This document shows, in pieces, positions 301-31,357 of a stretch of 64,000 nucleotides of DNA (its first letter is position 1; every line of letters starts with the position of its first letter). Origin of the DNA: a virus (Duplodnaviria; Caudoviricetes); IMG/VR virus record IMGVR_UViG_3300037247_001786, positions 396,979-460,978 of that record; one strand, 5' to 3'. The translations under genes and the position numbers were made by a program. The notes under the pieces are model-generated. The model saw nothing but the letters and a program-made list of their open reading frames with translations. It did not search any database and had not been told where the DNA came from.

Positions 301-380
301 ATTGCCAGAGTGGTAAAAAATAGAATTTATGTAGTTGTAAGTAATAACTAAAACATTTTTTATTAAACAGGAGAAAGACA

Positions 381-1037
381 ATGGATTCTAACAATCCAAA
401 TAGTGTAGCCATCGTTGGTACACCGGACATGGGGGTAGCCGTTAAAGTCACGGATACTCTGAAAGATAAGACTATCGACCTTATCATAATTATGACAGGA
501 AAAGAGTCTCTTTTCACTGCTTATGACCTAACGCAGCGATTGAGAGTGGAAAATGTCGGTATGAATGTTCCCCATGTAGAGATAAGGGATATGGTTCATC
601 AAGAGTTTAACGATACTTTCTGCGATGAGTACGAAAGAACTTTGACAGAGTTGCTTACTGGCGATAATTCTTTTGTCTATCACCCCGAGAATATCGCTGC
701 AACCGATTATCATTTGGCAGTAAAGCCAGCAGTTGACGATACGGTTGACGACGGAGTCGGTTTTGGTCTGACAGACAGTAATAGGCTCAATATCCCACTG
801 TCCATGTTGAACGATATGGAACTAAAGAAAAGCGATAAGGTTCATATTGAAACAGAGAATGGGGTAATGTCCCTCACAACCGTCCCAGCGACGCCAGATA
901 ATGAGTTACAGGTCAATGCCGATGGTCGGCTACGTCTTAACTCTACCACGCTTACAAGGGCATTTGGTAGCCTTAGTAAGAAGTACAACATTGAGGTATC
1001 TTCGGATAAAACAGCTATCACTGTTCGTCCGATATAA
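381..1037 (+). CDS. protein with C-terminal tandem AbrB/MraZ-like DNA-binding motifs
   Basis: GGAG SD; NRLNIPLSMLNDMELKKSDKVHIETENGVMSLT and NADGRLRL resemble swapped-hairpin repeats. Confidence 0.5.
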   Translation: MDSNNPNSVAIVGTPDMGVAVKVTDTLKDKTIDLIIIMTGKESLFTAYDLTQRLRVENVGMNVPHVEIRDMVHQEFNDTFCDEYERTLTELLTGDNSFVYHPENIAATDYHLAVKPAVDDTVDDGVGFGLTDSNRLNIPLSMLNDMELKKSDKVHIETENGVMSLTTVPATPDNELQVNADGRLRLNSTTLTRAFGSLSKKYNIEVSSDKTAITVRPI

Positions 1038-1063
1038 AGAACTATCAGCACTTCCTCACAATT

Positions 1064-1100
1064 AGAGAGGGGTAACTACGGTTACTCTTCTCTTTTTTTT
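1064..1100 (+). terminator. intrinsic terminator
   Basis: AGAGAGGGGTAAC-TACG-GTTACTCTTCTCT followed by a T run. Confidence 0.9.
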
Positions 1101-1150
1101 GCCAGAGTGTATAAAAATCACTTTTATAGTAGTATGAAAGGAATACTATT

Positions 1151-1750
1151 ATGCGAAAAAAAATAACAATAAATGATTATGAGTTTGAGTTAGTCTATTC
1201 AGTAGACGAACCTAACAAAATCGTTTCCTCTACCTTTAAACTCCGAAATGCTGGACCTCCTACCCAAGAGTTTAGTATGTCTAAAGAAGAATATAGAATA
1301 GGGCAAAAAATTCAAGCAGATATTTTCGATGGAGATTGGGATTGGCTTATCGCAAAAACGACAAAGACTATATCTTTAGATATATGTGGTATAACTATTG
1401 AGTTAGTTGATGTAGAATGGATAGGAGATACTCGTCTCCGCTATACCGATGGTAGTATCAGATATGGTGGAGGTTCTATAACTGATAATCTCAAAGACGT
1501 ATGCGAGGCTTGCGGTGACGTTCGTTGCGACTTGCTTTGTCCTGACGCTTTGGAGAAAGCAAGCGATAGGGATATAGATATTCAATGTAGTAATAATGAA
1601 GAATTAGAGAGTAGTAGAAACCACAACTATGCTTGCGATGGGGTACTATCTATGGTTTTGGGTCATGCTGTCGCTGGACTGGATATCGAATCAGCTGCTT
1701 ATAGAGAGGGGCTTGACGCTGCAATAGAGGGAATTGCCAATAATATCTAA
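1151..1750 (+). CDS. hypothetical protein
   Basis: 199 aa ORF; stop abuts the element at 1752. Confidence 0.8.
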   Translation: MRKKITINDYEFELVYSVDEPNKIVSSTFKLRNAGPPTQEFSMSKEEYRIGQKIQADIFDGDWDWLIAKTTKTISLDICGITIELVDVEWIGDTRLRYTDGSIRYGGGSITDNLKDVCEACGDVRCDLLCPDALEKASDRDIDIQCSNNEELESSRNHNYACDGVLSMVLGHAVAGLDIESAAYREGLDAAIEGIANNI

Positions 1751-1816
1751 TTTGCCAGAGTGATTATTTTTAAAGGTTATACAAGTGTTAATGTTAATTT
1801 TTGCGGAGTAAATACT

Positions 1817-2215
1817 ATGGGTTATTGTATTGAGTTAAGAGAAGAAAACTTTAAAGTCACCGTTGCTAAAAGTTTAGAGGCTTTTCCTATAGTCATGAAA
1901 TCTATTATTAACGAGAGAAACACAAGTACAATGAGTTTCTCTTGGGTAGATGATGAAGATATTGAAAAAGCTAAATCCTTAACTGACCTTATGACCTCTT
2001 TCCGTTGGGAACCTGATATTGACTCGGAAGGAAATATTATTAGTATTGATTTTTGTGGGGAGAAATTAGGGGATGATAAGATATTATTCGATATAATTGC
2101 TCCTTTTGTAGAAGATGACAGTTATATAGAAATGAGTGGGGAAGATGGTTCGATATGGAGATGGATTTTTAAAGATGGAGAATGTACTGAAAAAGATGCA
2201 ACTATTGTCTTTTAA
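1817..2215 (+). CDS. hypothetical phage protein
   Basis: start moved to MGYC.. after GCGGAG SD. Confidence 0.8.
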   Translation: MGYCIELREENFKVTVAKSLEAFPIVMKSIINERNTSTMSFSWVDDEDIEKAKSLTDLMTSFRWEPDIDSEGNIISIDFCGEKLGDDKILFDIIAPFVEDDSYIEMSGEDGSIWRWIFKDGECTEKDATIVF

Positions 2216-2254
2216 TAATTTGCCAGAGTGATTATTTTTAAAGGTTATATGATT

Positions 2255-2569
2255 ATGGAATTAAAAGAATTAAAAAATGAAACTATATGTTCTGATTGTG
2301 GGGCTGTAATAACCTCTGAATCAAGGAGCAATTTTCACACTAATGGTCACTGGAACGAATATCGAGAGTTTAAGTGCGGTAGAAAAATCCATTTTAGTCC
2401 TAACTTTATGAAGATTATCGTTGAGGTAGAATGTCCTAAAAACCCAACACAGAAACGTAAAATCGCGAAACAAAAAAGACTTGTAAAAGCTATCACTGAA
2501 ATGGTAAACAAGTCAAGAGTTACTAAAGAGTATAAAGAAAGACTCTTACGAGATATAAAATGGTGGTAA
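2255..2569 (+). CDS. hypothetical Cys-rich protein, ATG at element+35
   Basis: CSDC..C motifs; ATG is 35 nt after hexamer 2220. Confidence 0.75.
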   Translation: MELKELKNETICSDCGAVITSESRSNFHTNGHWNEYREFKCGRKIHFSPNFMKIIVEVECPKNPTQKRKIAKQKRLVKAITEMVNKSRVTKEYKERLLRDIKWW

Positions 2570-2838
2570 AATTTTTAATAAAATCAAATGTTTTTTATCA
2601 AGGACACGGTTCTAGTTCTTGTGGAACTTGCGAAGTAGAGTCAGAGCATAATAAAGAGTTATTAACTCTTTTTTTTCAGGCTCTTAAATCTGCTAAAATG
2701 ATAGAAGACTGGGTGACTATTTCTCAGATATGGTTATCGCAGGGTAAAGTTAATTTTGTATCTAAAACGAGTTTACAAGAAAATGGAGTTATCGCTTACT
2801 ATCATATTTGCCAGAGTGATAAAAATATAAACTTATAG
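2560..2838 (+). CDS. hypothetical protein
   Basis: reads through element 2808 (..HICQSDKNINL). Confidence 0.6.
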   Translation: MVVKFLIKSNVFYQGHGSSSCGTCEVESEHNKELLTLFFQALKSAKMIEDWVTISQIWLSQGKVNFVSKTSLQENGVIAYYHICQSDKNINL

Positions 2839-2872
2839 AATTGTTAATTGAAACTTATTGGAGTTTAAGACG

Positions 2873-3217
2873 ATGGGAACAAGAAAAAAAAGAAATAAGG
2901 ATATTTGGGATACCTCTAATTCGGATTGTCATGTTCCCTATACTGACGAAGACATAGAATTAATTCTTCATCAATTACCTATTCCTAGTAATTGTGAATT
3001 ACTGGGAAAAGCTTTAAAAAGGTCATCAGGAGCCATCCGACAAGTTTTTGAAAAAGCTTATATGCCTCATTCGGAAGCAAAAAATCTTACTGTTGGTAAA
3101 AATAGAGTTGAGAGTTCATATAATATACAGATACAAAAAATATCTAAAAAGCTGAGGCTTATTAGAGGGTATAACGTTTTTAAATACCAGGGCAAGAAAG
3201 ACTCTTACGAGATATAA
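2873..3217 (+). CDS. hypothetical protein, possible helix-turn-helix
   Basis: YTDEDIELIL..LGKALKRSSGAI pattern; GGAG SD. Confidence 0.65.
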   Translation: MGTRKKRNKDIWDTSNSDCHVPYTDEDIELILHQLPIPSNCELLGKALKRSSGAIRQVFEKAYMPHSEAKNLTVGKNRVESSYNIQIQKISKKLRLIRGYNVFKYQGKKDSYEI

Positions 3218-3272
3218 AATGGTGGTAATGAATTAGGTAATATCAATTTTAATTAGGTAAAGGAATTAGGTA

Positions 3273-3947: not shown

Positions 3948-3983
3948 TTTGCCAGAGTGAAGAAAAATAAGGTTTATAGTATT

Positions 3984-5955: not shown

Positions 5956-6720
5956 ATGGGCTGGATGTTCACATTTGATCATACAAGTCGATCACGTTGT
6001 ATCGACGATAGGATTAAGGATTGGGATACAAGACCTTTTCTAAAAGAAGAAGATAAGGTATATCATCTATCTACCTGTTTAAAGCAATGTTATAGGGGCA
6101 ATGCCTATTCTGGTGTACTTTGGAGTGTTCGAGAGACAAAGGAATATGACAGGTATACCGACCAGTTGGTACGTTCTGAATTGTGGATAGCTTGTGACCT
6201 GTTAAGATATGATAATAAGGACAAATGTTGGGGATATAAGGATATGTCGGAGAGTGTTGGTCCGAATAGTTATTCTTGTCCTCTTTCTTATCTTGACATG
6301 GTACCTATCCCCAAAAGCGAATATGCCGCTGGATGGAGAGAAGAAGTAAAAAAGTACCACGCAAGTAGAATACCCTCTTTTAAGGTTAAAAAAGATAGTT
6401 TTGTACTTTTAAAAGAAAACTATGGGATTAGAATTTTTAAAATAACCTCATTAAGACCTTTAAAGGGGATAGTTGGTAGTAAAAGAGAATATAGTATCCC
6501 TAGAAAGTCTCTTCTTCGCGAAATAACAAAAGAGGAAATAGATCAAGCGAAGAAAGAATATCAAGAACACCAAGACGGTGGAGAGTGGGGCGAGTGTGCG
6601 GAACAAGGAAGTAGAAGTAAGAATAAAGAGGATGCAATTCTTTATTATAATGATTTCTTATTTGCCAGAGTGAAGAAAAATATAACTTATACGAGTGTTG
6701 ATAATACTGATAATTCATAA
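5956..6720 (+). CDS. DUF6927-like phage/plasmid protein
   Basis: MGW.F start and WGYKDMSESVGPNSYSCPLSYLD motif; C-terminus reads through element 6662. Confidence 0.6.
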   Translation: MGWMFTFDHTSRSRCIDDRIKDWDTRPFLKEEDKVYHLSTCLKQCYRGNAYSGVLWSVRETKEYDRYTDQLVRSELWIACDLLRYDNKDKCWGYKDMSESVGPNSYSCPLSYLDMVPIPKSEYAAGWREEVKKYHASRIPSFKVKKDSFVLLKENYGIRIFKITSLRPLKGIVGSKREYSIPRKSLLREITKEEIDQAKKEYQEHQDGGEWGECAEQGSRSKNKEDAILYYNDFLFARVKKNITYTSVDNTDNS

Positions 6721-7314: not shown

Positions 7315-7959
7315 ATGGGAAAAGTAAAACCTACAAAAGAAGTAAAATGTCGTTGCGGTAAAAACTCTATTGTCGAGTTAATTCCAGCAGAAGGATATGT
7401 AAGGGTCACTCCTTTCATGTGCGATTGCGGTAGAACATTCCTTATCAGCGATTACGTTAATGCCATGACTACATATGGAGAGGTAGAACATAAACAATAT
7501 GATGAATTTCTTGAAATGCAAAAAAAAGATGCGACAAGGAAAAAAGTAAGAGATACATCGGATGAAGGACGTAGAAAATATCAATTAGTAGACAAGTGGT
7601 TAAATAGCCTATCAATAGATGCTATAAGTAGAATTGAGGCTCAAAGAGTCTTTACCCAAACTATTGATAAAGAGTTTGTTATCGAAACTATTCTTGAACA
7701 TTGTCGATATGAAGATGATTTATTGGAGAGATTATATGGACAATATCTGGCATGTAATGCTATCTCTATGATGACTACGGATAAAAGAGAGTGGTTTATA
7801 CTAAAAATGGTAGGTTGCGTAGAACCAGTATTAGTAGGTCCAATTTCTACAGAAATAGAAATGAAAGAGCGTTTGGAGAAGTATGCAGATGACCCTAAAG
7901 AGAGTCAGAACTCTCATACTTATTTTTCCGCAAAAAAAGATGCAGATATAAGATTTTAG
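7315..7959 (+). CDS. hypothetical protein with N-terminal Zn ribbon
   Basis: CRCG..CDCG; AGGAG SD. Confidence 0.8.
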   Translation: MGKVKPTKEVKCRCGKNSIVELIPAEGYVRVTPFMCDCGRTFLISDYVNAMTTYGEVEHKQYDEFLEMQKKDATRKKVRDTSDEGRRKYQLVDKWLNSLSIDAISRIEAQRVFTQTIDKEFVIETILEHCRYEDDLLERLYGQYLACNAISMMTTDKREWFILKMVGCVEPVLVGPISTEIEMKERLEKYADDPKESQNSHTYFSAKKDADIRF

Positions 7960-8033
7960 TATTTGCCAGAGTGGTAAAAAAATAGTCTTATAGAGTTGTA
8001 AAGTTAATGTTATAAATTCGATTGGAGAAACAA

Positions 8034-8834
8034 ATGGACGGTTTAATGATTGACACAAAAGACAGCGGTATCGTAACAATAGAAAGAGCATTTTCTATTC
8101 CTGTTCCCGAAGAAACAAAGACGTACAAGCCTGTCGGTAATGAGGCTCTTTGGAAAATGCTCCAGAGAACTGCCAATGTAAGAGGGCTGGAGTTAGGTAC
8201 TCCTGAAATGGGACTCGCTCAAAAGGGACAGCGACTTTTTGGTCAAGTCGAGATTGTCAATCAAGACCATCTTGATAACGAAGTTCGTTTGATGCTTGGT
8301 TTCCGTAACAGCTATAACCGATCGATGTCAGTCGGAATCTGTTTCGGAAGTAAAGTTTTTGTATGTTCTAATATGTGTTTTACGGGATATACTTCTGAAG
8401 ATGAGGATGCGGTAGGTCAAGTTCATCATCGTCATCAAGCAAATGTATGGGAAGGGCTGCAAGAACGACTTAATGAGGCTTTGGATAAGTTCGAGGTATT
8501 CAAGAGCTATCAGAACGACTTTTACAGTAAGCTGAAAGAAAACGAGTTAACGGATGCGGAAGCCCATGATTTGATTATCAATTCAGTTCGGCATGAAGCA
8601 ATTACGGCTAAAGATTGTTTCACAGTTGCCGAAGAATGGGCGTTCCAGAATAGAGGCCCGCAAGATGATAGCGAAGAAGATAGATGGCATAAAGAATTCC
8701 TGCCCAGAAACGCTTGGAGCCTCTTCAATGCTTATACCGAGATACATAAGGGATTTCAGATAAAGAACCCCCTTGAAGCGAATTTGAGGTCTATCAAGAT
8801 GAATAAGTTCTTTCATAACCAGTTTATGAGTTAA
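8034..8834 (+). CDS. DUF932 family phage/plasmid protein
   Basis: FRNSYNRSMSVGICFGSKVFVCSNMCF and NAWSLFNAYTE motifs. Confidence 0.85.
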   Translation: MDGLMIDTKDSGIVTIERAFSIPVPEETKTYKPVGNEALWKMLQRTANVRGLELGTPEMGLAQKGQRLFGQVEIVNQDHLDNEVRLMLGFRNSYNRSMSVGICFGSKVFVCSNMCFTGYTSEDEDAVGQVHHRHQANVWEGLQERLNEALDKFEVFKSYQNDFYSKLKENELTDAEAHDLIINSVRHEAITAKDCFTVAEEWAFQNRGPQDDSEEDRWHKEFLPRNAWSLFNAYTEIHKGFQIKNPLEANLRSIKMNKFFHNQFMS

Positions 8835-8840: not shown

Positions 8841-8875
8841 GAAGGGGAAGGACATCGAAAGTTCTTCCCCTTTTT
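8841..8875 (+). terminator. intrinsic terminator
   Basis: GAAGGGGAAGGAC/GTTCTTCCCCTTTTT hairpin after 8834. Confidence 0.85.
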
Positions 8876-8908
8876 GCCAGAGTGGTAAAAATTTAATCTT
8901 ATAGTAGT

Positions 8909-9029
8909 ATGATGAGGCAGTCGGCGGAAAGAGAGTTGCCGTCAGAGCAAAGTTGCGGTCGAACCTACTCAAATATCGTAAAGTGCCTTGCAAGGAAACA
9001 TGATATTCTTTGCCTGCCTCGTTTTTTTT
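8909..9029 (+). ncRNA. candidate small RNA, copy A of a 3-member family
   Basis: sole content between elements 8874 and 9041; closing stem GAGGCAG/CTGCCTC then T8. Confidence 0.6.
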
Positions 9030-9075
9030 GTAATAGTATTTTGCCAGAGTGGTAAAAATTTAATCTTATAGTATT

Positions 9076-10427: not shown

Positions 10428-11162
10428 ATGAGAAAAATAATGAGCGATGATAACACTGTTTGGGATGAACGGAAAACAGATTTTACTGAACCATTGAGGA
10501 AAAAATCGGATGGTAAGCGATCAGCAGTTGCGGGGATTATTGTCCTATTAGGGATTATCTTGATATTTGGTATATGCTTTGTAGTGTCACGGATTACGAC
10601 GGTTCAAGATGATCAATGGGCTGTTCGGCAACATATGAATGGGGATATAGAGGTTATAGAAGGTCCAGGAGTTTATCTTCCCTTGTTTAGCAAAATATGG
10701 ATATATCCTCTTAAAATAACAGTTGAATATAAAACAACCGCTTATTTTAACGATACTGAGGCAAGAGAGGTGAAAACGCTCTGCCGAGTAGAATTACCCG
10801 AAGATAATACTGATAGAGTATCTCTTCATAAAGGACTTTCAGGAGACATATTTAATGTATATCCAATAGTTAGGGCTGCTGTTGGCAATTCGATTAAATC
10901 AATTGCCCCTATTATGAGTACAAATGAGATTGTCTATCACCGCAGAGCGGAATTTTGCGAATTAGTATATCGTCAATTAAAAGAAGGTCTTTTTCTCCAA
11001 CATAGTTCTAGTAAAATCATTGACGGTAAAAACGTCCTTATGTCTACAATCCAAAAGGATGAAAACGGAGACTATATCCCTATGAGCGACGCTATATTAG
11101 AGAGAATGGGATTGAATGTATCGCTTTTTAGCATCACCTCAATAGGCGATTTGCCAGAGTGA
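10428..11162 (+). CDS. SPFH/band 7-like membrane protein, apparently C-terminally truncated
   Basis: single TM then beta/alpha SPFH-like pattern (AVRQH.NG.IEVIEGPGVY..RRAEF..LKEG); ends GD-LPE* inside element 11151. Confidence 0.65.
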   Translation: MRKIMSDDNTVWDERKTDFTEPLRKKSDGKRSAVAGIIVLLGIILIFGICFVVSRITTVQDDQWAVRQHMNGDIEVIEGPGVYLPLFSKIWIYPLKITVEYKTTAYFNDTEAREVKTLCRVELPEDNTDRVSLHKGLSGDIFNVYPIVRAAVGNSIKSIAPIMSTNEIVYHRRAEFCELVYRQLKEGLFLQHSSSKIIDGKNVLMSTIQKDENGDYIPMSDAILERMGLNVSLFSITSIGDLPE

Positions 11163-13306: not shown

Positions 13307-14002
13307 ATGTATAGAGAAGGCCAGAAAATAATTACTAAAAGTAACGAACACGATGAAAACTATCGAGTTGGTATTTTCGTTGCATATAATGACGCACTGA
13401 AAAGTCCTGATAATATTCCTATGATAGAAATAGAGGGTATCACTTATACTTGTTTCGGTATAACTATGCCTTTCACAACCAGTCTTACTGCAAGACTCGA
13501 TAAACTTACTCCAAAACATCAATGGGAATTTCTTTGTGCTATTAAGAGTTGGGATAGCGGCAATCAGTTTATCATTATGAGAGGGTTGCCGGGAAGTGGA
13601 AAATCCACTCTTGCCAGAAAGTTAGCTGGTCTAACTGGTCAAGTTTTTAGTACAGATGATTTCTTTTCTATGACGGGAGAGTATATCTTTAATCCTACAC
13701 GACTTGGCAAGGCTCATAAATGGAATCAGAATAGGTCAAAGGCTGCTTTCTCTGCTAATATACCTATTATTGTAATTGATAACACTAACACTACGATTAG
13801 CGAAATGAGAAATTATCTGCCTCATATCGAATTGGCTCGACTTTATGGTTATCAAGTTTTTATTGCAGAACCAGATACAGATTGGCGTTTTAACGTCGAT
13901 GAATTGGTACTTAAAAATTCTCATGGCGTACCTAAAGAAGCAATACAAAGGATGGCTGATAGGTATGCTCACGATGTTAGGTTGGAAGATATTTTGTTTT
14001 AA
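13307..14002 (+). CDS. N4BP2-like/AAA_33 P-loop polynucleotide kinase with unknown N-terminal domain
   Basis: IMRGLPGSGKSTLA Walker A, STDDFF, HKWNQ, VIDNTN. Confidence 0.85.
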   Translation: MYREGQKIITKSNEHDENYRVGIFVAYNDALKSPDNIPMIEIEGITYTCFGITMPFTTSLTARLDKLTPKHQWEFLCAIKSWDSGNQFIIMRGLPGSGKSTLARKLAGLTGQVFSTDDFFSMTGEYIFNPTRLGKAHKWNQNRSKAAFSANIPIIVIDNTNTTISEMRNYLPHIELARLYGYQVFIAEPDTDWRFNVDELVLKNSHGVPKEAIQRMADRYAHDVRLEDILF

Positions 14003-14467: not shown

Positions 14468-14821
14468 ATGCTTTATTTTGAACAGTGGAGACAATCTCGA
14501 AGGCTACCCGAAAAAGGGGATGTTATATATGTTATCCCTATTCGATATTGGGAACCAGATGAATATACTCCTGAAAAGTTCACGGTAGAAAAAGCGTATA
14601 TACAAGAAACAGGTGGTAGATTAACCCTTTATGGACAATATGAGAAAGAAAAGCCCGATACTCCTATGTATGCGGCTAAAGATTGTGATGCTCAATGGTA
14701 TTGGGATTATGAGAGTGCCAGAAAAGTACAGCTTTTATTACATCAAATATATGAGGTAGTTTCACATGACGACGCTGCCCATATAGTAGAAAAGATATTG
14801 AGAGAAGAATTGCCAGAGTGA
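14468..14821 (+). CDS. hypothetical protein
   Basis: GGAG SD; ends LPE* in element 14810. Confidence 0.8.
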   Translation: MLYFEQWRQSRRLPEKGDVIYVIPIRYWEPDEYTPEKFTVEKAYIQETGGRLTLYGQYEKEKPDTPMYAAKDCDAQWYWDYESARKVQLLLHQIYEVVSHDDAAHIVEKILREELPE

Positions 14822-14874
14822 AGAAAAAACTAATTTACAGAAGTGTTAATAATAATTTAATTGGAGATAGTAAA

Positions 14875-15165
14875 ATGAGTGTAACAAAGATAATTACAGT
14901 AATGTTTTGTATTCTATCGTTGATCGTAGGATTCGTACTCGGCGGACTTGTTGATAATTTCCGTTATGAAACAGTTGTTGCGGAAAAAGACGCACTAAGA
15001 AAAGACCTATTGTATAACATAGGATTGCTTACCGTAACACAAGATGCTCTTATAAGTAGGGGGCGTGCTTTAGAAGAGGTTATATATGATAATATGAAAT
15101 ATTTCACGATAATAGAGGCGTATAAAAAGCGAGATAATTTCGACCCTAACGATTTGCCAGAGTAG
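14875..15165 (+). CDS. N-terminally anchored membrane protein
   Basis: TM helix; ends LPE* in element 15154. Confidence 0.75.
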   Translation: MSVTKIITVMFCILSLIVGFVLGGLVDNFRYETVVAEKDALRKDLLYNIGLLTVTQDALISRGRALEEVIYDNMKYFTIIEAYKKRDNFDPNDLPE

Positions 15166-15217
15166 CGTTTTTTCTATCTTATAGAAGTGTTAATAATAAC
15201 ACTGAATAGGAGTAATA

Positions 15218-15664
15218 ATGAATTATAAATATGAATGTTCTTGGAGTCCTCACGACGGTTGGCATTTTTCTTTAGGGAAAAAAAGATTATGGGAAGCCAG
15301 TACAGGATATATAGTTGCGGAGATTCACACTTGGAGAGAATACTCGGAAGATAAACTTAAACCTGGACAAAAACATGAGGGGTATAGAAACCACGAACAT
15401 TTTACAGAGTTGGAAGATGCTCTTAACTTTATGAGAACAGGAGAAATCCCTACTTATTATATCGTAAATAGTCGTTTTCAGCCTTTAAGCTATTTTGCCT
15501 CTAATGATTTCGTTACGAAAAAACAGCTTAGATTTAGAAAAAGAGATTGTATCTCTTATAGAAACAAAAAAGAGGCACTAGAATATTTGGCTATCATTCA
15601 AAGTGAATGTAGACAAAAAGGACAAGCACAATCATTAAAAGTAAGTACTTTATGTAAATGGTAA
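15218..15664 (+). CDS. hypothetical protein
   Basis: AGGAG SD. Confidence 0.8.
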   Translation: MNYKYECSWSPHDGWHFSLGKKRLWEASTGYIVAEIHTWREYSEDKLKPGQKHEGYRNHEHFTELEDALNFMRTGEIPTYYIVNSRFQPLSYFASNDFVTKKQLRFRKRDCISYRNKKEALEYLAIIQSECRQKGQAQSLKVSTLCKW

Positions 15665-15703
15665 AAATTTGCCAGAGTAGTAATTTTTCTATCTTATGGT
15701 ATT

Positions 15704-17148: not shown

Positions 17149-17377
17149 ATAACGAATAGTAATTTATGCCGGGAGTCGTAGAAGTAGAAACAGAGTAGCG
17201 GAATGCCGAACCCCCTTAAGCAAGGGCTTGACCGCGGGCGAAAGGTTTTTACCGAAGCTATTAGGGTAGATAGACGTACCCCTAATAGAAGCATAGAGAA
17301 AACTAACTAATAGTTGAGCTTGAACTGGGTTGACTTTCTCTTAAACTCTTAACGGGGTTCTCCTGGCACCATTTTTT
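17149..17377 (+). ncRNA. candidate ~210-nt structured RNA
   Basis: closing stem TGCCGGGAG/CTCCTGGCA, perfect 11-bp hairpin 17258-17287, 3' T run; follows element 17114. Confidence 0.6.
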
Positions 17378-17390
17378 GAGAAAGAAAGTA

Positions 17391-17768: not shown

Positions 17769-17902
17769 TTCTTCGATTTCTTTATTCTAGGGGAAGTGTA
17801 ACAACTTCCTCTTTTTTACGCGAAAATAAATTGCCAGAGTGATAAAAAAACTCTCTTATAGTATTGTAAACAATAACAATATTATTTTTAGGGAGTAAAG
17901 AA

Positions 17903-20365: not shown

Positions 20366-20650
20366 TCATTTTCTGGTCTTATAGTATTATAAAGACGACG
20401 CATTTGGTACTGCGGTTTTTTTGCTCATTGAATAGATGATACCTAATAGTCTTACTGTAACAAAGTAAAATCGAGCTTAGGAAATCGAGCTTTTAGGAGA
20501 CAATGTCGCTATTCATACATTTTTGAATCCTTCTTAAGATTAGGCGGTAGTTAATTCTACCGTCTTTTTTTCGCGAAAATAAATTGCCAGAGTAGTAAAT
20601 TTTCTATCTTATTAAGGTATAAACAACGATAACCTTTTGGAGATAGAACA

Positions 20651-21127
20651 ATGAAAACAGAATGTTTAGTAATCGTCGATATGCAGCCAGATTTTAAGTC
20701 TGCCAATGATAGAAAAACAATAGATAATGTTCTCATACAAATCGAAAAAGCAAGGGAACAAGATATTCCTATCTTTATTTTAGAATTTATAAATCATGGA
20801 CAAACATCAGAAGAGATACAAGAGGCATTGGAGGGATATTATCAAGTATGGTTTATCGCGAAAGGCGATGACGATGGGTCAAGGGAGTTAATAACTTGTA
20901 TTCAAGATAATGCGTATATTGTTAACGATTTTATCGTTTGCGGAGTTAATATATGTGCCTGTGTTTATTGGACTATTAAAGGGTTATTAAAAGATTATAA
21001 AACCAGAATAACCGTTATTAAAGATGCTTGTAATGGTAAGTGGTCACACCATATCGACAATGACCAAACTTATAATGATTATGACTTACAAGATGTTTAT
21101 ACAAGCGATAGAGTATCTCTTGTATAA
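20651..21127 (+). CDS. isochorismatase/nicotinamidase-like cysteine hydrolase
   Basis: LVIVDMQPDF, CGVNICACV..T, VIKDAC motifs. Confidence 0.85.
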   Translation: MKTECLVIVDMQPDFKSANDRKTIDNVLIQIEKAREQDIPIFILEFINHGQTSEEIQEALEGYYQVWFIAKGDDDGSRELITCIQDNAYIVNDFIVCGVNICACVYWTIKGLLKDYKTRITVIKDACNGKWSHHIDNDQTYNDYDLQDVYTSDRVSLV

Positions 21128-21191: not shown

Positions 21192-21998
21192 ATGAGCCTA
21201 ACAATAGAAGACCTAACAATAGAAGTAACTCGTAAATGTAATATGCAATGCGAACACTGTCTAAGAGGGCCAGCACAAAGAAAAACAATATCAGACCAGC
21301 ATATCTATAAGATACTTCAATTGATAGACGACGTAGGGACACTAACTATCACTGGAGGAGAGCCGACACTTGCAATGGATTCCTTAACCCAAATACAACA
21401 CTGTGTTCAGTATAATCGAGCCGACGTTGGCAGTTTCTATATGGTCACAAATGGCAAGTCGATCAATGTTGATGCACTGGCAGAGTGGGCAAATTATATG
21501 AGATTTGCCTGCCATGATAACGAACTTTCTGGAGTGGCTTTCTCGTTTGACCAATTTCATCTAAACACTTTTAATAACCCACAACTGGACAAACAAAAAC
21601 GTAATTATTATAGATTAAAAGATATAATAGAGAATGAATATGGGATTCTCGATGAACAAGGCTTTGCGGGGTTTATACGCAAACATTCCGATGATTCTTG
21701 GGGTTACGATTCATTACTGGCGGAGGGTAGAGCCGAAGATTTTGGAGTAAGAACTAACGACCCTAAAATATTCATAGAGGACATTTGGAAAGACAATATC
21801 AACTTTTCAGATAATATACTATATCTATCTGCTAATGGTTATATTGTTTCTGACTGCAACTGGAGTTACAAGAGTATAGATAGCGATAAACAGATAAGGA
21901 TTGCTCATATTGATGACATACAAAGTCAAGATGATTTGATTGAAGCTATAAGGACATATAATAAGAGAATGACACCACTAGTCGAAGCATTAGTATAA
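21192..21998 (+). CDS. radical SAM protein
   Basis: CNMQCEHC (CxxxCxxC), TGGEP, MVTNG. Confidence 0.9.
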   Translation: MSLTIEDLTIEVTRKCNMQCEHCLRGPAQRKTISDQHIYKILQLIDDVGTLTITGGEPTLAMDSLTQIQHCVQYNRADVGSFYMVTNGKSINVDALAEWANYMRFACHDNELSGVAFSFDQFHLNTFNNPQLDKQKRNYYRLKDIIENEYGILDEQGFAGFIRKHSDDSWGYDSLLAEGRAEDFGVRTNDPKIFIEDIWKDNINFSDNILYLSANGYIVSDCNWSYKSIDSDKQIRIAHIDDIQSQDDLIEAIRTYNKRMTPLVEALV

Positions 21999-22034
21999 TT
22001 TGCCAGAGTAGTAAAAAATAGGATTTATAGTATT

Positions 22035-22193
22035 ATGAAAGAACAACAAAAACAAAAAGTATTGAGACTTCTAAATGAAGCAAATGATATTCTCACTGAC
22101 GAAATCGCTGACGACGAAGAAATCGAAACACAAGACATATTTTGTCCTCTTGGAGAGGTTATAAGTAATGTCTATGATATTGATACAGAATAA
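22035..22193 (+). CDS. small acidic protein (52 aa), ATG at element+35
   Basis: MKEQQKQK..DEIADDEEIE.. Confidence 0.65.
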   Translation: MKEQQKQKVLRLLNEANDILTDEIADDEEIETQDIFCPLGEVISNVYDIDTE

Positions 22194-23280: not shown

Positions 23281-23635
23281 CGATATAGATTCGTCCCAAT
23301 AGGCCAATGCAGGTATCAAATGTCTGGAAGCCTGGCGGGGCGTCTTATTTTTTGCCAGAGTAGTAAAAAACAACTCTTATAGTATTAACAAGGGTAAAAC
23401 CCATTATATAAAATAATTTTAACTGTTAGCCCGAAAGGATGGTGTACTCTGTTTTAATGTAAAAAAATAGATTCTTAATTAAATTGATTGTTTGTCGGTA
23501 TTGCATAACCGTCATATAGGGCAAATCTGGCGGGGTTCAGGTTTGCTCTTTTTTCGCGAAAATAAATTGCCAGAGTGACAAAAAAACTGTCTTATAAAGG
23601 TATAAACAACAATAATACTTTTTGGAGATAAGAAA

Positions 23636-26160: not shown

Positions 26161-26234
26161 TAATCTGCCAGAGTGACAATTTTTCTATCTTATAGTATTG
26201 TAAAGAAAACAATAACTTTTTTGGAGATAAGATA

Positions 26235-26555
26235 ATGGAATTTACAGTAACCGACAAAGGGCTTAAAATCGTAATCGTTAGCGACGGAGCCAAAGCTGTA
26301 TTGCAAGAGTACCACGACGATGAAACCATAGATACAGACTCTTCAATGTACGAAATGTTCGATGATATTCTGGGAAATACAGAATTCGAGTGGATAAGTC
26401 CAGAAGAAATTGGAGCTTTAACATCGGCACCTATTATCGGTATTAAAGATGAAAATGATGTTGTTATCGAAGCGTATGGTTTTATGGATTACGCTATTGA
26501 ATCCCTGTTAGGTCAACTATTCAAATATGGCGAAGCCTTACTGATAAAAGGATAA
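26235..26555 (+). CDS. hypothetical acidic protein
   Basis: stop abuts element 26556. Confidence 0.8.
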   Translation: MEFTVTDKGLKIVIVSDGAKAVLQEYHDDETIDTDSSMYEMFDDILGNTEFEWISPEEIGALTSAPIIGIKDENDVVIEAYGFMDYAIESLLGQLFKYGEALLIKG

Positions 26556-26625
26556 TCGCCAGAGTGACAATTTTTCTATCTTATAGTATTGTAAAGAAAA
26601 CAATAACTTTTTTGGAGACTGAAAA

Positions 26626-27036
26626 ATGGCAACTTACAAAATACCAACAACCGTAAAAATAACTACACAACGCATTAAAGATATGCTCATAACTGCTCTT
26701 GAGGGAGGGAGTGACTACTGGTTGAGGGTTAGAGTAAAAGACCTTAACAGATTATCTGAACAATTCAATAACGATCGCAATATGGAAAATCTTATATTGG
26801 CTGGGGCCAGCGTACCTATTTACGATGCTGAAGGTCAAGATGGTCTTCTTGGACACTTGAGTATGTTAAATATCATAATGGCATTGTCGGCAATGGCTCA
26901 AGGCGAGAATATCAAAGAAGAGAAAAACGATAGGCTTAAAGAACATTTCGATAACTTCATCAATGAAAATGACGACGCGGAAACCGCCGATGTTATAGTA
27001 CAGATTGCAGTTATGGAAAGTGTAGTATATGGATAA
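26626..27036 (+). CDS. hypothetical phage protein
   Basis: DMLITALEGGSDYW..DDAETADVIVQ..V.YG. Confidence 0.8.
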   Translation: MATYKIPTTVKITTQRIKDMLITALEGGSDYWLRVRVKDLNRLSEQFNNDRNMENLILAGASVPIYDAEGQDGLLGHLSMLNIIMALSAMAQGENIKEEKNDRLKEHFDNFINENDDAETADVIVQIAVMESVVYG

Positions 27037-27517: not shown

Positions 27518-27679
27518 ATGAATAGGATTAAAATATATTTATCAAATGGAGATTCTATTGATTTGGTGTTAATAGATGATAATAATATTGATTTTACTGA
27601 CCTTGATTCAATAGCCGAATATTTTGAATATGATGGCGATAGTAGTGAAATAATAAAAGTCGAAATGTATCTTGATTAG
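27518..27679 (+). CDS. small acidic protein (53 aa, not in track)
   Basis: GGAG SD after element leader. Confidence 0.7.
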   Translation: MNRIKIYLSNGDSIDLVLIDDNNIDFTDLDSIAEYFEYDGDSSEIIKVEMYLD

Positions 27680-27703
27680 ACTAAATTTCGCGGAGATAAT
27701 AAA

Positions 27704-27976: not shown

Positions 27977-28112
27977 AAATGAATGAAAAAATACGAAAAA
28001 GAGTTATTATAGTTCTAATAGGTCTTATTATCTTTATATCCGGTATGAAGACCGGCATCAGTTGGAGAGATAAAGGATGGGAAAGAGCTATAAATAGTAT
28101 AAAGGTAGAGAA

Positions 28113-28361
28113 ATGATACTTTGTACCTATAAAAGATTCTATTCAAGAGACGGAAACTCTTTTCAAGAATGCGGAACAGATAAGTTCAAAACAGATAATA
28201 AAGGGGAAGCAGACCTTGTTATAAGTAATTGGAATAGAGTGGGAGGAAGAAAAAACCAATTAAATACATTTTATAGATATGAAATAGAGACAACTGAAGA
28301 TATAGATTGGAATGTATGGGACAATGAAGATATACCATATCGAAATGGGGGTATTTGGTAA
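28113..28361 (+). CDS. hypothetical protein
   Basis: stop abuts element 28363. Confidence 0.7.
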   Translation: MILCTYKRFYSRDGNSFQECGTDKFKTDNKGEADLVISNWNRVGGRKNQLNTFYRYEIETTEDIDWNVWDNEDIPYRNGGIW

Positions 28362-28439
28362 ACTGCCAGAGTGACAAAAAATTGCTCTTATAGTATTGTA
28401 AAGAACAATAATAAAAACAATATTTTAAGGAGCAGTAAA

Positions 28440-29525
28440 ATGGACAAGGCAGCCAACTATCACAGCAAAGCAAAAGATTTCGTAAGGACCATCGCAACCG
28501 AAAAAATAGGGAATCCAGCCAAATTTTCTATCGTTTTCGCATCCGTCGATGCCCTATCCACAAAACAGAACTTCAAAACGGGAAACTTCATAAACAAGAG
28601 CAAGTTAATCCCGGTTGAGCAAGAACCGTTAATTCGCCCATTAGTAGATAAAGTAATGGGACAATTAACAAAGAATACTGTACCTGCTTTAGCTTGTTCA
28701 GCCCATTCAATTCCTTTGGAAAAACATCTTGATATTAAAAAGGGCGAAAAACTCGACTATACCTTTTATGATATTTGCGGTAACGAAACTGTTAGAATCG
28801 CAAGATGGTTCTATCTCTATCAAGAATATCTTGAAAATGGGATGCGTCTGCCGATGACAATTCAGGTCGGAAGTAAAAGAGGTTTTGGATATAGTTATGA
28901 TGCTGTCAATAATGCGACAAATGGTAACTTTAACTCTTTTGTCCACAATCTTTTAAGAAAACAAGGTACCGAAATAACTCTTTTGAGTAGCTCAATTTCA
29001 CCTGCAGCTTGGGAAAGCCTATATGCTCAAATCTATCTGATTTATTGCTCAATGCCAAGCAAGGAAATCGAGTTTAAGAGTATCCATATCTATAACAACG
29101 CCGATATTGTAGATAGGGAAGAGGGGCAAATTGGGAAACTTGCTGAGGATATGGCTATGATAGATATGGTTATTCACGACAGAGAAGAGCTTGATACCGT
29201 TATCTTGAGCAAGTTAAAAAAGATAGTCAACTGCTACAATGAACTAATCAGCGATAATACTGAGATAATAGAGCTGAAACATCGGGTTCGTAAAAGCAAG
29301 GCTAAAAAAATGAGGGAAAAGAAGCCAATGAAAATCTACAATCCACCTCGCTTTGTAAATGCCCACGAAATCGCCCGACATTTGGGGATATATGGCAACT
29401 ATAAATCAATGGATGACGTTCCACAAGGAAAGCAGTCATGGATTAAGATTCACGCAAAACAAAACAGTCTCGACCCGATCGTTTGCTTCAATAAGATAAA
29501 ACAAAGATTGTCGAGACGGAAATAA
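28440..29525 (+). CDS. hypothetical protein (361 aa)
   Basis: AAGGAG SD; longest ORF of the array. Confidence 0.85.
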   Translation: MDKAANYHSKAKDFVRTIATEKIGNPAKFSIVFASVDALSTKQNFKTGNFINKSKLIPVEQEPLIRPLVDKVMGQLTKNTVPALACSAHSIPLEKHLDIKKGEKLDYTFYDICGNETVRIARWFYLYQEYLENGMRLPMTIQVGSKRGFGYSYDAVNNATNGNFNSFVHNLLRKQGTEITLLSSSISPAAWESLYAQIYLIYCSMPSKEIEFKSIHIYNNADIVDREEGQIGKLAEDMAMIDMVIHDREELDTVILSKLKKIVNCYNELISDNTEIIELKHRVRKSKAKKMREKKPMKIYNPPRFVNAHEIARHLGIYGNYKSMDDVPQGKQSWIKIHAKQNSLDPIVCFNKIKQRLSRRK

Positions 29526-29650
29526 CACAATAAAAAAGAGAGAGAGCCTCCAGAAATGGGGGCTTTTTTTTCGCGAAAAATTGAGTGCCAGAGTGCCAAT
29601 TTTTCTATCTTATTAAGGTATAAACAACAATAACTTTTGGAGATAAAAAA

Positions 29651-29989
29651 ATGAAAATCAAAACAAAAGAAGTCGGCAAAATAATGGCAATTGAAGACAG
29701 AGATTGTACTATTATTAAATGGACAAAAGATGTCGTCTTGGACGTTATAAAATTCGATAAAACAGGAGAAGACCACGACCCCGCCGATGATAAAGTATTC
29801 AAACAAGGGGAACACACTCTTGTTAAAAACCTTGAGGAATTTGATAAGGAATCAGTCGAACTAGACTTTATGGATGGGACAAGTTGCCTTTATATATCTA
29901 AAGATTCTTTCAGCGTCCCGCTAATGATTCGATTAAATCAAGAGGAAACCGATATTACCCTCAATAATGTACCTGAATGGGTATCGTAA
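29651..29989 (+). CDS. hypothetical protein
   Basis: stop abuts element 29991. Confidence 0.8.
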   Translation: MKIKTKEVGKIMAIEDRDCTIIKWTKDVVLDVIKFDKTGEDHDPADDKVFKQGEHTLVKNLEEFDKESVELDFMDGTSCLYISKDSFSVPLMIRLNQEETDITLNNVPEWVS

Positions 29990-30053
29990 TCCGCCAGAGT
30001 GCCCTTTTTTCTATCTTATAGTATTATAAAGAATAACTTTTGGAGATAAAAAA

Positions 30054-30518
30054 ATGAGTTACGACCAAATAAAAGAAATCAATTATAATACGTCAAACAA
30101 TATCCTACAAATCCCGAATCTAAAGTTCAGTCAAGAAACAAAGAAACTCTACCATAAATATAGAGAACTAAAAACTATAACAGAAAAACATCTCCAGAAT
30201 CTCGCCAATAGCATCTTCAAGGATTTAGGACTTAAAACAGTACCAATAACTTTTAATGGAGTACGTCCACATCAGAGTAACGGAAAACGAATTGTTAAGG
30301 AAACCCACGGAGTACATCAAAGAGGACTCGATGGATCCAAAATAACTGTTTATCAATTTACTGCCGCAAGAAAAAAACATATAGCGGCTAAAACAGCTAT
30401 ATCAACTCTTCTTCATGAGATAAACCATAATATAGATTATAATATCTTGAATCTGAAGTCAATACATACAAGAGGCTTCTACTCCAGATTGAAACATCTA
30501 ACTGCACAAATGGGATAA
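30054..30518 (+). CDS. SprT/zincin-like metalloprotease
   Basis: TLLHEINH (HExxH) and HTRGFY. Confidence 0.75.
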   Translation: MSYDQIKEINYNTSNNILQIPNLKFSQETKKLYHKYRELKTITEKHLQNLANSIFKDLGLKTVPITFNGVRPHQSNGKRIVKETHGVHQRGLDGSKITVYQFTAARKKHIAAKTAISTLLHEINHNIDYNILNLKSIHTRGFYSRLKHLTAQMG

Positions 30519-30598
30519 AGTATGTCTTTTGCCAGAGTGTCAGTTTTTCTACTTTATAGTATTGTAAAGAAAACAATAACTTATTTTTGGAGAAAAAA

Positions 30599-31357
30599 AT
30601 GGAAACGAAAACAAAAACAAACGTCATAGCGATAACAAAAATCACGACCGACAATATCGCTGAAATGCTCTTGAACCGTCACGGAGCCACTTTCGTAAGG
30701 CTTGACAGCAGAACCGAACCGAATCTGAAAAAGACCAACAACCCCTTTTATGACAAGGCAACCAAGACCATGAATGTCGTAAAAGACTCGTCAACCAATG
30801 CGATGATTGGGGTAAACTATACCAACTTGGTCAACAATGCTCGAAACCGAGAAGCCATTAACGAAGTAAAAGAAGCTTTAATGTCGGCTTTGGGAATGAC
30901 CGAAGAAGATGCAAAAGCATACCTCGAAAGTCTTTTAACTTCTGCCTCGGATATGGTAAATATCAATGCCGAAGCTTTCGAGCCAAAACCTCGTAAATGG
31001 GGAACGCATATGATAGACAAAAAAGGTCTTGTTTCAAAGACTATGGTAGAACATACCAAAGCCGATGGAGAATATAACCAATACATGCAAATCATGGTTA
31101 TCTCCTCTACAACTCCAGTTTATCGCTATGCCGATACGCTCGAAGAAGTATCAAAAGCAGACCTCGAAACTATTAAATCTCTTATCCCCCCGAAATACAG
31201 CAATGCGGCACATCAAGGTCTTAAAAGGGAAGTAATAATAAGGGACTACAAAGTCCAGAATATCAAACAGCTACGGCTAAACAAGACAGAGTATGTCGTC
31301 GAAGCCGAAACCGTAGTTGTCGATGCCCAAAGTCATGTATCTTCCCCTGCTGTATAG
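30599..31357 (+). CDS. hypothetical phage protein
   Basis: GGAG SD; last module of the array. Confidence 0.85.
   Translation: METKTKTNVIAITKITTDNIAEMLLNRHGATFVRLDSRTEPNLKKTNNPFYDKATKTMNVVKDSSTNAMIGVNYTNLVNNARNREAINEVKEALMSALGMTEEDAKAYLESLLTSASDMVNINAEAFEPKPRKWGTHMIDKKGLVSKTMVEHTKADGEYNQYMQIMVISSTTPVYRYADTLEEVSKADLETIKSLIPPKYSNAAHQGLKREVIIRDYKVQNIKQLRLNKTEYVVEAETVVVDAQSHVSSPAV

What the first reader, a model, noticed from the sequence alone, without database searches (positions are those of the whole stretch)
302..31357. 31-kb array of 53 single-element gene modules, with genes cut flush at the element: candidate cassette-shuffling system
Seen: the same element recurs about every 570 bp, always on the + strand, and not after 30.6 kb. 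Of 53 copies, 27 have the upstream stop codon 0-4 nt before the hexamer, 7 supply the stop themselves (ORFs ending LPE*/TPE* at 11162, 14821, 15165, 16732, 17125, 19018, 20365), 4 are read through, 12 follow a terminator and 3 lie a little further from a stop. Each unit is [element + leader/SD + 1-4 small ORFs or an RNA]. Some copies share long identity (61 nt, 26167-26227 = 26558-26618). Established: repeated early promoters mediate module shuffling in T4-type phages (PeSL cassettes), and integron cassettes often put their stop codon in the recombination site. Inference: the element is both promoter and fixed crossover point, giving an integron-like but promoter-bearing library of host-takeover/anti-defence genes. 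No recombinase is visible in this window.
Basis: partly seen in the sequence, partly recalled or inferred. Interest (0 to 1): 0.88.

Follow-up and report, generated by a model that had tools for sequence, protein, structure and literature searches.

The report
Megaphage promoter array, not an integron
A 461-kb marine-sediment phage carries about 75 copies of one phage-specific promoter-plus-leader, each driving a few small unknown genes; this is a giant accessory-gene expression region like those of T4-type phages, and I found no evidence for a dedicated cassette-recombination machine.

Summary
There are 53 copies in the window. There are 75 on the + strand over about 61 kb of a 460,978-bp phage genome, and none on the minus strand.

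The element is a two-part promoter: TTGCCAGAGTG, an A-tract, yTTATAG, and a purine at position 36. A conserved roughly 30-nt leader with a short hairpin and a GGAG ribosome-binding site follows it.

Stop codons do abut it. The stop-to-element distance d is 0-4 nt in 24-27 copies, and 7 copies supply the stop themselves. Three things explain this:
- the genome is tightly compacted;
- the element's 5' edge (A/T then T) can be shared with TAA;
- most copies carry stops in all three frames.

The integron-like reading fails. The genome has no tyrosine or serine recombinase. Five related metagenomic lineages keep a collinear backbone. Gene order does not break more often at promoter-bearing junctions (adjacency kept in 30/133 with a promoter, 9/83 without).

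The upstream box is lineage-specific and evolves in concert, while less constrained positions do not. This points to a phage-encoded specificity factor.

A passive, PeSL-like role in homologous exchange remains possible but untested, because only contigs were available, not raw reads. The same stretch was noted by this scan in two overlapping windows; no look-alike was found on other DNA.

The parts
302..30600 (+). Window part of the class-1 promoter array (53 of 75 copies). Element starts: 302, 1099, 1752, 2220, 2808, 3949, 5003, 5886, 6662, 7250, 7963, 8874, 9041, 10016, 10353, 11151, 11631, 12042, 13240, 14063, 14403, 14810, 15154, 15669, 16119, 16721, 17114, 17831, 18346, 19007, 19521, 19847, 20354, 20584, 21129, 22000, 22677, 22991, 23352, 23567, 24008, 24557, 25035, 25307, 25873, 26165, 26556, 27038, 27448, 28363, 29585, 29991, 30529
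   Evidence: Pattern search and position-weight scan. The array continues upstream of the window to genome 367 kb.
26165..26237 (+). Typical unit: box (1-11), T/A tract, cTTATAG (25-31), T35/R36, leader hairpin TATTGT..ACAATA, GGAG, ATG at 26235. It is 61 nt identical to the unit at 26556.
26556..26628 (+). Twin promoter-leader of 26165. Both flanking genes are unrelated to those of its twin.
1748..1762 (+). Example of the flush-stop class d=1 (TAA-T-TTGCCAGAGTG). The last A of TAA is the element's -2 position.
11151..11162 (+). Example of a stop supplied by the element (TTG CCA GAG TGA = LPE*). It ends the 244-aa ORF 10428-11162.
6662..6720 (+). Example of a promoter lying inside the 3' end of an ORF (5956-6720 reads through the element).
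17789..17841 (+). Composite terminator hairpin + T-tract + CGCGAAAATAAA + box, a PeSL-like terminator/promoter junction. Others are at 20569, 23552, 25858 and 29569.
22000..22040 (+). Example of a copy with ATG at element positions 36-38, a possible leaderless start. Others are at 3949, 10016, 11151, 12042 and 19847.
8874..9035 (+). Promoter driving a non-coding stretch of about 127 nt that ends in a terminator (candidate small RNA).
8034..8834 (+). DUF932 backbone gene, used as the anchor to find relatives. Its own class-1 promoter is at 7963.
13307..14002 (+). AAA_33 kinase-like backbone gene, conserved and collinear in L280, L282 and L283.
21192..21998 (+). Radical SAM gene inside the array.
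20651..21127 (+). Isochorismatase-family gene inside the array.
31723..31760 (+). First class-2 (sigma-70-consensus, TTGAAAGTGAT...TAAGAT) promoter after the array ends. Others are at 33157 and 44246.

Best explanation
The region is the window part of a roughly 61-kb one-directional transcription array in a 461-kb phage.

The element. About 75 copies of one phage-specific two-part promoter occur in the array. If position 36 is the transcription start, the box TTGCCAGAGTG lies at -35 to -25, an A-tract at about -22 to -17, and yTTATAG around -10. Each copy carries a conserved leader of about 30 nt with a short covarying hairpin and a GGAG ribosome-binding site.

What it drives. Each copy fires 1-4 small genes, about 90% of them without any known family. 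Upstream of the window the same element also drives tRNA genes, and a few copies drive small RNAs.

What reads it (inferred). The -10 part lacks the sigma-70 hallmark, and the box is private to each related lineage. The promoter is therefore most likely read by host core RNA polymerase carrying a phage-encoded specificity factor. The candidate is the phage's sigma with regions 2, 3 and 4 at genome 47.3 kb, which itself sits behind a sigma-70-type promoter. This step is an inference, not a demonstration.

Why stops abut it. Stop codons abut the element because of compaction. The element's own 5' edge (A/T at -2, T/A at -1) can be shared with a TAA. Most copies also carry stops in all three frames: TGA/TAG at 10-12, TGA at 12-14 or TAA at 13-15, and TAG at 29-31.

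Gene turnover. Turnover in the array is real, but it is not tied to the element in the data available.
For: Shown:
- 75 copies, + strand only. TTGCCAGAGTG is the commonest 11-mer in the genome.
- T35 and purine 36 are present in 72/73 copies. A tRNA-Phe starts 2 nt after position 36. Several start codons sit at 36-38. The next start codon lies at a fixed 62-72 nt.
- Leader hairpin stems covary: GTGTTA/TAACAC, TATTGT/ACAATA, GGTTGT/ACAACC.
- The sigma-70 consensus scan does not pick up the element (71 hits against 76 expected). A second, canonical class, TTGAAAGTGAT-N-TATAAT, lies elsewhere in the genome and upstream of the sigma gene.
- Five related lineages have the same dense + strand architecture with their own boxes: TTTCCAGAGGT, GCTCCAGAGGT, TAACCAGCATA, nTGCCAGAsTA.
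- Orthologous promoters carry their own genome's box.
- Box identity is 91% within a genome and 58% between orthologous promoters. Less constrained positions are 44% within a genome and 47% between orthologues.
- Positions -2 and -1 are A/T-only even in the 34 copies without a flush stop.
- 62 of 69 array ORFs have no Pfam match. Only 3 paralogue pairs exist among 132 array genes.
Against: - No RNA data exist, so the start site and promoter activity are inferred.
- Timing (early or middle) and the identity of the recognising factor are guesses.
- Flush stops show a reading-frame skew (29:19:9, p=0.005) that compaction alone does not fully explain.
- Seven near-identical promoter-leader pairs have unrelated flanks. 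Similarity decays with distance along the array (r=-0.29, permutation p<=0.0005). Box variants cluster spatially. These three results show that some copying or exchange between copies does occur.
Confidence: 0.8

Rival explanations
1. PeSL-like shuffling. The roughly 70-nt promoter-leader repeats are also substrates for ordinary homologous recombination (phage RecA-family protein). Exchange within the genome or between co-infecting relatives would delete, excise as circles, or swap the genes between two copies, as shown for T4-type phages.
For: - The layout matches PeSLs: upstream stop, promoter, stem-loop, SD, start; about 50 or more copies; upstream of orphan genes.
- Composite terminator-CGCGAAA-promoter junctions recur.
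- Seven pairs are at least 85% identical in variable positions while their flanks are unrelated, and similarity decays with distance.
- Box variants cluster spatially.
- A RecA-family gene lies at genome 206.8 kb.
- Variable genes sit between collinear backbone genes in relatives.
- Contigs from runs X2-X4 share G000's leaders but continue into different genes right at the start codon (table 7).
Against: - Synteny does not break more often at promoter-bearing junctions (30/133 adjacencies kept with a promoter, 9/83 without). The result is robust to ORF size cut-offs.
- The L254/L282 indel has both ends inside a module.
- Variable promoter positions are not homogenised within a genome.
- No circle or deletion junction with long flanks was seen, but only contigs could be examined.
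- The available relatives are distant (about 70% nucleotide identity), so fine breakpoints are blurred.
Confidence: 0.3
2. Integron-like site-specific cassette system. The element would be a recombination site cut at a fixed point by a dedicated recombinase, with the promoter as a passenger.
For: Only the flush stops and the stops supplied by the element, which recall integron cassettes.
Against: - No Phage_integrase or Resolvase domain in any frame of the 461-kb genome, while the controls were positive.
- Every module has its own promoter.
- The element has no attC-like long imperfect inverted repeat.
- Promoters are positionally orthologous across lineages.
- Backbone gene order is collinear.
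Confidence: 0.03
3. The repeat is not a promoter but another signal, such as an RNA processing site, an antitermination site or a replication/packaging repeat.
For: There is no direct transcription evidence, and the -10 part is non-canonical.
Against: - Strict orientation matching the genes.
- Fixed distance to the SD and start codon.
- 17-bp spacing between the two conserved blocks, with a purine at the expected start.
- A tRNA 5' end and start codons at that point.
- Placement directly after terminators.
Confidence: 0.05

Closest known systems
PeSL (promoter-early stem-loop) regulatory cassettes of T4-type phages (Arbiol et al. 2010, PMC2839356; Comeau et al. 2014, PMC4122927)
   Same: Dozens of copies of a strong promoter with an associated stem-loop or terminator. 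They begin at the upstream gene's stop codon and end at the SD/start of the next gene. They are concentrated in hyperplastic regions upstream of orphan genes.
   Different: - Here the -10 part is not sigma-70-like and the box is lineage-specific.
- The copies form one 61-kb one-directional block in a 461-kb phage.
- The stem-loop is a weak 5-8 bp leader hairpin in about half of the copies.
- Recombination at the element is not shown here. For PeSLs, breakpoints and mini-circles were demonstrated experimentally.
Phage-sigma-dependent promoter classes (general knowledge, from memory: SPO1 gp28 and gp33/34; phiEco32 gp36), and promoter/polymerase co-evolution in T7-like phages
   Same: A two-part promoter unlike the host consensus, private to the phage. 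The promoter sequence changes in concert between related phages.
   Different: The factor is not identified here. The copy number (75) and the density (one per about 0.6-0.8 kb) are unusually high.
Integron cassette arrays (IntI, attI, attC)
   Same: A one-directional array of small gene units. The stop codon often lies in or at the repeat.
   Different: No integrase, no attC-type structure, and a promoter on every unit. The units are positionally conserved between relatives.
Host-takeover or early regions of large lytic phages (general knowledge, from memory: the SPO1 host-takeover module and T4 early regions)
   Same: Many strong promoters with strong ribosome-binding sites driving small genes of unknown function. 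tRNA genes and ADP-ribosyltransferase-like, macro-domain and kinase-like genes are interspersed.
   Different: The temporal class is unknown here, and the scale is several-fold larger.

Membership tests
Integron | Adjacent tyrosine recombinase (IntI) | tested here: not met
   No PF00589 hit anywhere in the 461-kb genome, while the controls were positive. There is also no serine recombinase.
Integron | attC-type imperfect inverted repeat at each cassette end; cassettes mostly without promoters, read from one Pc | tested here: not met
   The element is an asymmetric two-part motif with only a short leader hairpin. Each unit carries its own promoter.
PeSL regulatory cassettes | Repeated strong promoter motif located between genes, from upstream stop to downstream SD/start | tested here: met
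   75 copies. The stop is flush in about half of them, and the start codon lies 62-72 nt downstream. Promoter activity itself is inferred.
PeSL regulatory cassettes | Promoter matches the host sigma-70 consensus (early class) | tested here: not met
   The hexamer at the -10 position is yCTTAT/TTATAG, without A at its second position. The sigma-70 scan does not recover the elements.
PeSL regulatory cassettes | Associated stem-loop or terminator | tested here: inconclusive
   Covarying 5-8 bp leader hairpins occur in roughly half of the copies, but the mean folding energy is only -2.1 against -1.4 kcal/mol for shuffles. About 9-12 copies directly follow an intrinsic terminator.
PeSL regulatory cassettes | Enrichment in hyperplastic regions upstream of orphan genes | tested here: met
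   62/69 ORFs have no Pfam family. Content varies between collinear backbone genes in relatives.
PeSL regulatory cassettes | Indel and replacement breakpoints between close relatives lie in the element | tested here: inconclusive
   At the divergence available (about 70% nucleotide identity), breaks are not enriched at promoters, and one indel lies inside a module. No relative at 95% identity or more with long contigs was available.
PeSL regulatory cassettes | Mini-circles from exchange between nearby copies | not testable with these tools
   Only Logan contigs were served for the runs holding this phage. The joints seen have 23-46 nt sides inside the repeat.
Sigma-70-family-dependent promoter | Two conserved blocks about 17 bp apart, with a purine start about 7 nt after the second block | tested here: met
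   TTGCCA lies at 1-6, the hexamer at 24-29, and T35/R36 occurs in 72/73 copies. This is the same geometry as the genome's canonical class-2 promoters.

The most novel reading that the evidence does not exclude
In a clade of uncultivated marine megaphages, a private sigma (or activator) and about 75 cognate promoter-leader units form a self-contained expression platform. The units would also serve as PeSL-like homologous crossover points. Co-infecting relatives could then swap orphan-gene cargo while keeping the regulatory frame, and the flush stops would be the footprint of such swaps. The lineage-specific box would at the same time act as a barrier that limits which incoming cassettes are expressed.
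Probability: 0.2. Interest if true: 0.6.

Novelty: new member of a known kind. Interest (0 to 1): 0.4.

Why it matters
Transcription control in phages above 400 kb is almost unstudied, because none of this clade is cultivated. This finding gives three usable things:
- a precise, testable promoter definition for about 75 transcription units;
- a second, host-like promoter class;
- a candidate sigma factor.

The lineage-specific boxes across five relatives offer a natural experiment in promoter/factor co-evolution.

For genome annotation, the element marks gene starts, tRNA units and small RNAs.

For the recombination idea, the value is a negative result. Flush stops at a repeated promoter do not by themselves indicate a cassette system.

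Tried and rejected
Searches for relatives that gave nothing useful:
- blastn of 8 kb of the window against 50,697 phage records: no match.
- Two pattern scans of IMG/VR: only single chance hits.
- Two array proteins against IMG/VR: no relatives.

Reads and expression:
- Logan contigs of the source run and three marine runs break at every promoter copy. Their 'joints' have 23-46 nt sides, which are repeat artefacts and not circles.
- The two joints with longer sides (33-87 nt), 24291>24414 and 29197>29318, are indels inside genes.
- A low-depth contig joining 27594 to 22743 remains unexplained.
- No RNA run was listed.

Other checks:
- No tRNA and no Rfam family in the window.
- L284 is identical to L283, and L281 to L280, so they give no structural variants.
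- Module duplication as the source of the array is rejected: only 3 paralogue pairs among 132 genes.
- Wholesale gene conversion of promoters is rejected: variable positions are no more alike within a genome than between genomes.
- Reading TTGCCA as a host -35 hexamer is rejected: TTG is not conserved in relatives, only CCAG is.
Full report
WHERE IT IS

The window is the last 64 kb (396,979-460,978) of a 460,978-bp IMG/VR virus record. The record has 34% G+C and a 110-bp end overlap, which indicates a circular or complete assembly.

The genome encodes the following:
- DNA polymerase III alpha, UvrD, topoisomerase, ribonucleotide reductase with inteins, a CCA-adding/poly(A)-polymerase-like enzyme, and a Mu-type portal;
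- EF-Ts;
- 36 tRNA genes;
- one sigma-70-family gene.

It is a 'megaphage' from a marine sediment metagenome.

THE OBSERVATION

TTGCCAGAGTG with up to 2 mismatches occurs 66 times in the window, against 9.3 expected. It is the commonest 11-mer in the genome.

A position-weight scan gives 53 full copies in the window (302-30529) and 75 between genome 367 kb and 427.5 kb. All are on the + strand, and the minus strand has none. So the array is about 61 kb and is cut by the window's left edge.

In the window, mean spacing is 581 bp. Modules hold 1 gene (35 modules), 2 (11), 3 (3), 4 (1) or none (3).

ANATOMY

From 73 aligned copies:
- positions -2 and -1 are A/T then T/A;
- positions 1-11 are TTGCCAGAGT(G/A), with positions 3-10 invariant;
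- positions 14-19 are an A-tract, or a T-tract in a subfamily;
- positions 25-31 are cTTATAG, with TTA invariant;
- A33, T35 (72/73), a purine at 36 (72/73), T37 and A39-A40 follow.

A leader comes next. It often starts with a short hairpin whose stems covary: GTGTTA..TAACAC, TATTGT..ACAATA, GGTTGT..ACAACC. GGAG follows, and the start codon lies 62-72 nt from position 1.

The hexamers at 1-6 and 24-29 are 17 bp apart, and the conserved purine lies 7 nt after the second. This is the geometry of a sigma-70-family promoter with its start at position 36. Two independent pointers support that start:
- tRNA-Phe begins 2 nt after position 36;
- six to nine copies have ATG at positions 36-38.

The second hexamer (t-c/t-T-T-A-T) lacks the A at its second position. 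The sigma-70 consensus scan does not recover the elements (71 hits against 76 in shuffles).

A SECOND PROMOTER CLASS

TTGAAAGTGAT-N11-12-TATAAT, often with a TGn extension, has canonical sigma-70 form. It occurs about 35-45 times on both strands outside the array. It flanks the array on both sides; in the window it is at 31723, 33157 and 44246. A variant precedes the phage sigma gene, which has regions 2, 3 and 4.

The simplest reading is a cascade: host sigma reads class 2, including the phage sigma gene, and the phage factor reads class 1. This is an inference. Neither the timing nor the factor is shown.

RELATIVES

IMG/VR gave none. A metagenome pattern scan gave fragments L181, L254, L240, L198, L238 and L194. 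The DUF932 gene in the array (window 8034-8834) has more than 70 homologues at 62-81% identity. Their contigs gave L280 (from a 254-kb scaffold), L282 and L283/L284.

All of them carry the same dense arrays, one promoter per 0.5-0.9 kb on the + strand only. Each has its own box:
- G000 (this phage's genome): TTGCCAGAGTG;
- L280: (T/G)TTCCAGAGGT;
- L283: GCTCCAGAGGT;
- L282: TAACCAGCATA;
- the L1xx/L2xx fragments (L181, L254, L240, L194, L198): nTGCCAGA(C/G)TA.

Only CCAG, the A-tract, yTTAT and T-R-T are common to all. The orthologous promoter in front of DUF932 carries each genome's own box.

Box identity is 91% within a genome and 58% between orthologous promoters. Less constrained spacer and leader positions are 44% within a genome and 47% between orthologues. 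So the box evolves in concert but the rest of each promoter does not. That is what selection to follow a changing trans-acting factor predicts. It is not what wholesale gene conversion predicts. Because the box is lineage-specific, the factor is probably phage-encoded.

THE FLUSH STOPS

The stop-to-element distance d is distributed as follows:
- d = 1 in 17 copies;
- d = 0 in 7 copies;
- d = 4 in 4 copies, usually with a second TAA at d = 1;
- d = -12 in 7 copies;
- d = -14 in 4 copies.

Against uniform placement, d in {0,1} has p about 5e-25.

In the 34 copies without a stop at d = 0 or 1, position -2 is still A (22) or T (12), and -1 is T (29) or A (5); neither is ever G or C. So the element's edge reaches -2, and a TAA can share it.

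The element also closes all three reading frames in most copies: GAG-TGA/TAG at 10-12, GTG-TGA at 12-14 or TGG-TAA at 13-15, and the TAG of TTATAG at 29-31.

The relatives show the same abutment even though their boxes differ. L282 uses TAA as box positions 1-3.

I read this as maximal compaction against a constrained element. A frame skew (29:19:9, p=0.005) is not fully explained by that. Homologous exchange at promoters would carry flush junctions along, but it would not create them.

TESTS OF THE SHUFFLING IDEA

1. Recombinases. The genome has no tyrosine or serine recombinase. It has one RecA-family gene.

2. Gene order. Backbone genes are collinear in L280, L282 and L283, with different genes in between. 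By genome start coordinate the backbone genes are 397359, 398129, 400251, 401180, 402045, 402934, 404293, 405000, 406361, 409055, 409929 and 410285. A few genes sit elsewhere: homologues of 343770, 356046, 436267 and 423213. L181 is partly reordered.

3. Breakpoints. If promoter-bounded modules were the unit of exchange, adjacency should survive better inside modules than across promoters. The opposite trend is seen. Adjacency is kept at 30/133 junctions with a promoter and at 9/83 without. The odds ratio is 2.4 with ORFs of at least 40 aa, and 1.5-1.6 (not significant) at 60 or 80 aa.

4. A specific indel. L254 has a 1.9-kb, five-gene insertion relative to L282, with both ends inside a module.

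5. Promoter turnover. Promoters are gained and lost independently of genes. One promoter lies between the 397359 and 398129 homologues in G000 and L240, and none in L282 and L283.

6. Reads. Only contigs were available. They break at each promoter copy, and their joints are repeat artefacts.

These tests are made at about 70% nucleotide identity. They cannot exclude PeSL-type exchange among close relatives.

EVIDENCE THAT SOME EXCHANGE BETWEEN COPIES OCCURS

- Seven pairs are at least 85% identical in variable positions, while their flanks are at background similarity of about 27%.
- Similarity decays with rank distance along the array (r=-0.29, permutation p<=0.0005).
- Box variants cluster spatially: non-T at position 1 at the distal end, p=0.0002; A at position 11, p=0.03.
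- A terminator-TTTCGCGAAA-ATAAA-box composite recurs five times and is also found in relatives.
- Contigs from other marine runs share G000's leaders but continue into different genes at the start codon (table 7).

CONTENT

Of 69 ORFs of at least 45 aa in the window's array, 62 have no Pfam family. The rest match DUF932, DUF6876, an AAA_33 kinase-like domain, isochorismatase, radical SAM and a macro domain. PHROG matches include phosphatase, polynucleotide kinase and RNA ligase families. A PARP-like gene lies just upstream of the window. A host-takeover or counter-defence role is plausible but not tested.

COMPARISON AND VERDICT

The closest known thing is the PeSL system of T4-type phages. 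It has the same stop-promoter-stem-loop-SD layout and about 50 copies upstream of orphan genes.

This array differs from PeSLs in these ways:
- it is not sigma-70-like;
- it has a lineage-specific box;
- it forms one huge block in a megaphage;
- it has no demonstrated recombination.

It is not an integron. I classify it as a new member of a known kind, namely phage promoter arrays in hyperplastic accessory regions. It has one interesting extra, the concerted re-specification of the box across a clade. Interest is moderate.

Noticed in passing
window 31723, 33157, 44246; genome 4-111 kb (minus strand up to 47 kb, plus strand beyond), 298-372 kb (+): A second promoter class, TTGAAAGTGAT-N11-12-TATAAT, with canonical sigma-70 geometry and often a TGn extended -10. 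It has about 35-45 copies, none overlapping the class-1 block except at genome 368483, 371895 and 388768. At genome 388768 its TATAAT abuts a class-1 box.
   Followed up: partly
window 20569, 23552, 25858, 29569; genome 385901, 104060; L283:10850, L282:13371, L240:1187: The palindrome TTTCGCGAAA occurs 10 times in the genome against 0.5 expected. In nearly all cases it sits directly after a terminator T-tract, and it lies 15-16 nt before a class-1 box (five times) or a class-2 box (once). It is conserved in relatives. It may be an UP-like or insulator element.
   Followed up: partly
window 3949, 10016, 11151, 12042, 19847, 22000: Class-1 copies whose ORF starts with ATG at element positions 36-38, with AAGG/AGGA in the promoter spacer. 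The gene may be leaderless from its own promoter but SD-led on read-through transcripts.
   Followed up: no
window 8909-9035, 17149-17390, 20389-20580, 23387-23566: Promoter-driven stretches without ORFs that end in intrinsic terminators. They fold modestly better than shuffles (z -1.6 to -2.1) and have no Rfam match. They are candidate small RNAs.
   Followed up: partly
genome 373482-385870 (upstream of the window): 33 of the phage's 36 tRNA genes lie inside the class-1 array. tRNA-Phe starts 37 nt after an element's first base, which leaves almost no 5' leader.
   Followed up: partly
L283:6249-6519 and 7321-7589: A 271-nt segment, 96% identical, is shared by parts of two different array genes about 1 kb apart in a relative. 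This is recent partial duplication or gene mosaicism away from promoters.
   Followed up: no
L280:14724-15869: An IS605-type TnpB (OrfB_IS605 / Cas12f-like) gene sits inside the relative's promoter array. L283 has a TnsA-like/NUMOD3 endonuclease gene at 14821-15702.
   Followed up: no
window 27594 and 22743 (run X1, depth 3.7): A low-depth contig in the source sample joins 27594 back to 22743 with 10 extra letters. It may be a co-occurring relative or a rearranged variant. This could not be resolved without reads.
   Followed up: no
window 52741-53634 (-), 53697-59706 (+): A phage-encoded EF-Ts on the minus strand lies next to a + strand block of glycosyltransferases and a methyltransferase. 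This block is outside the array.
   Followed up: no
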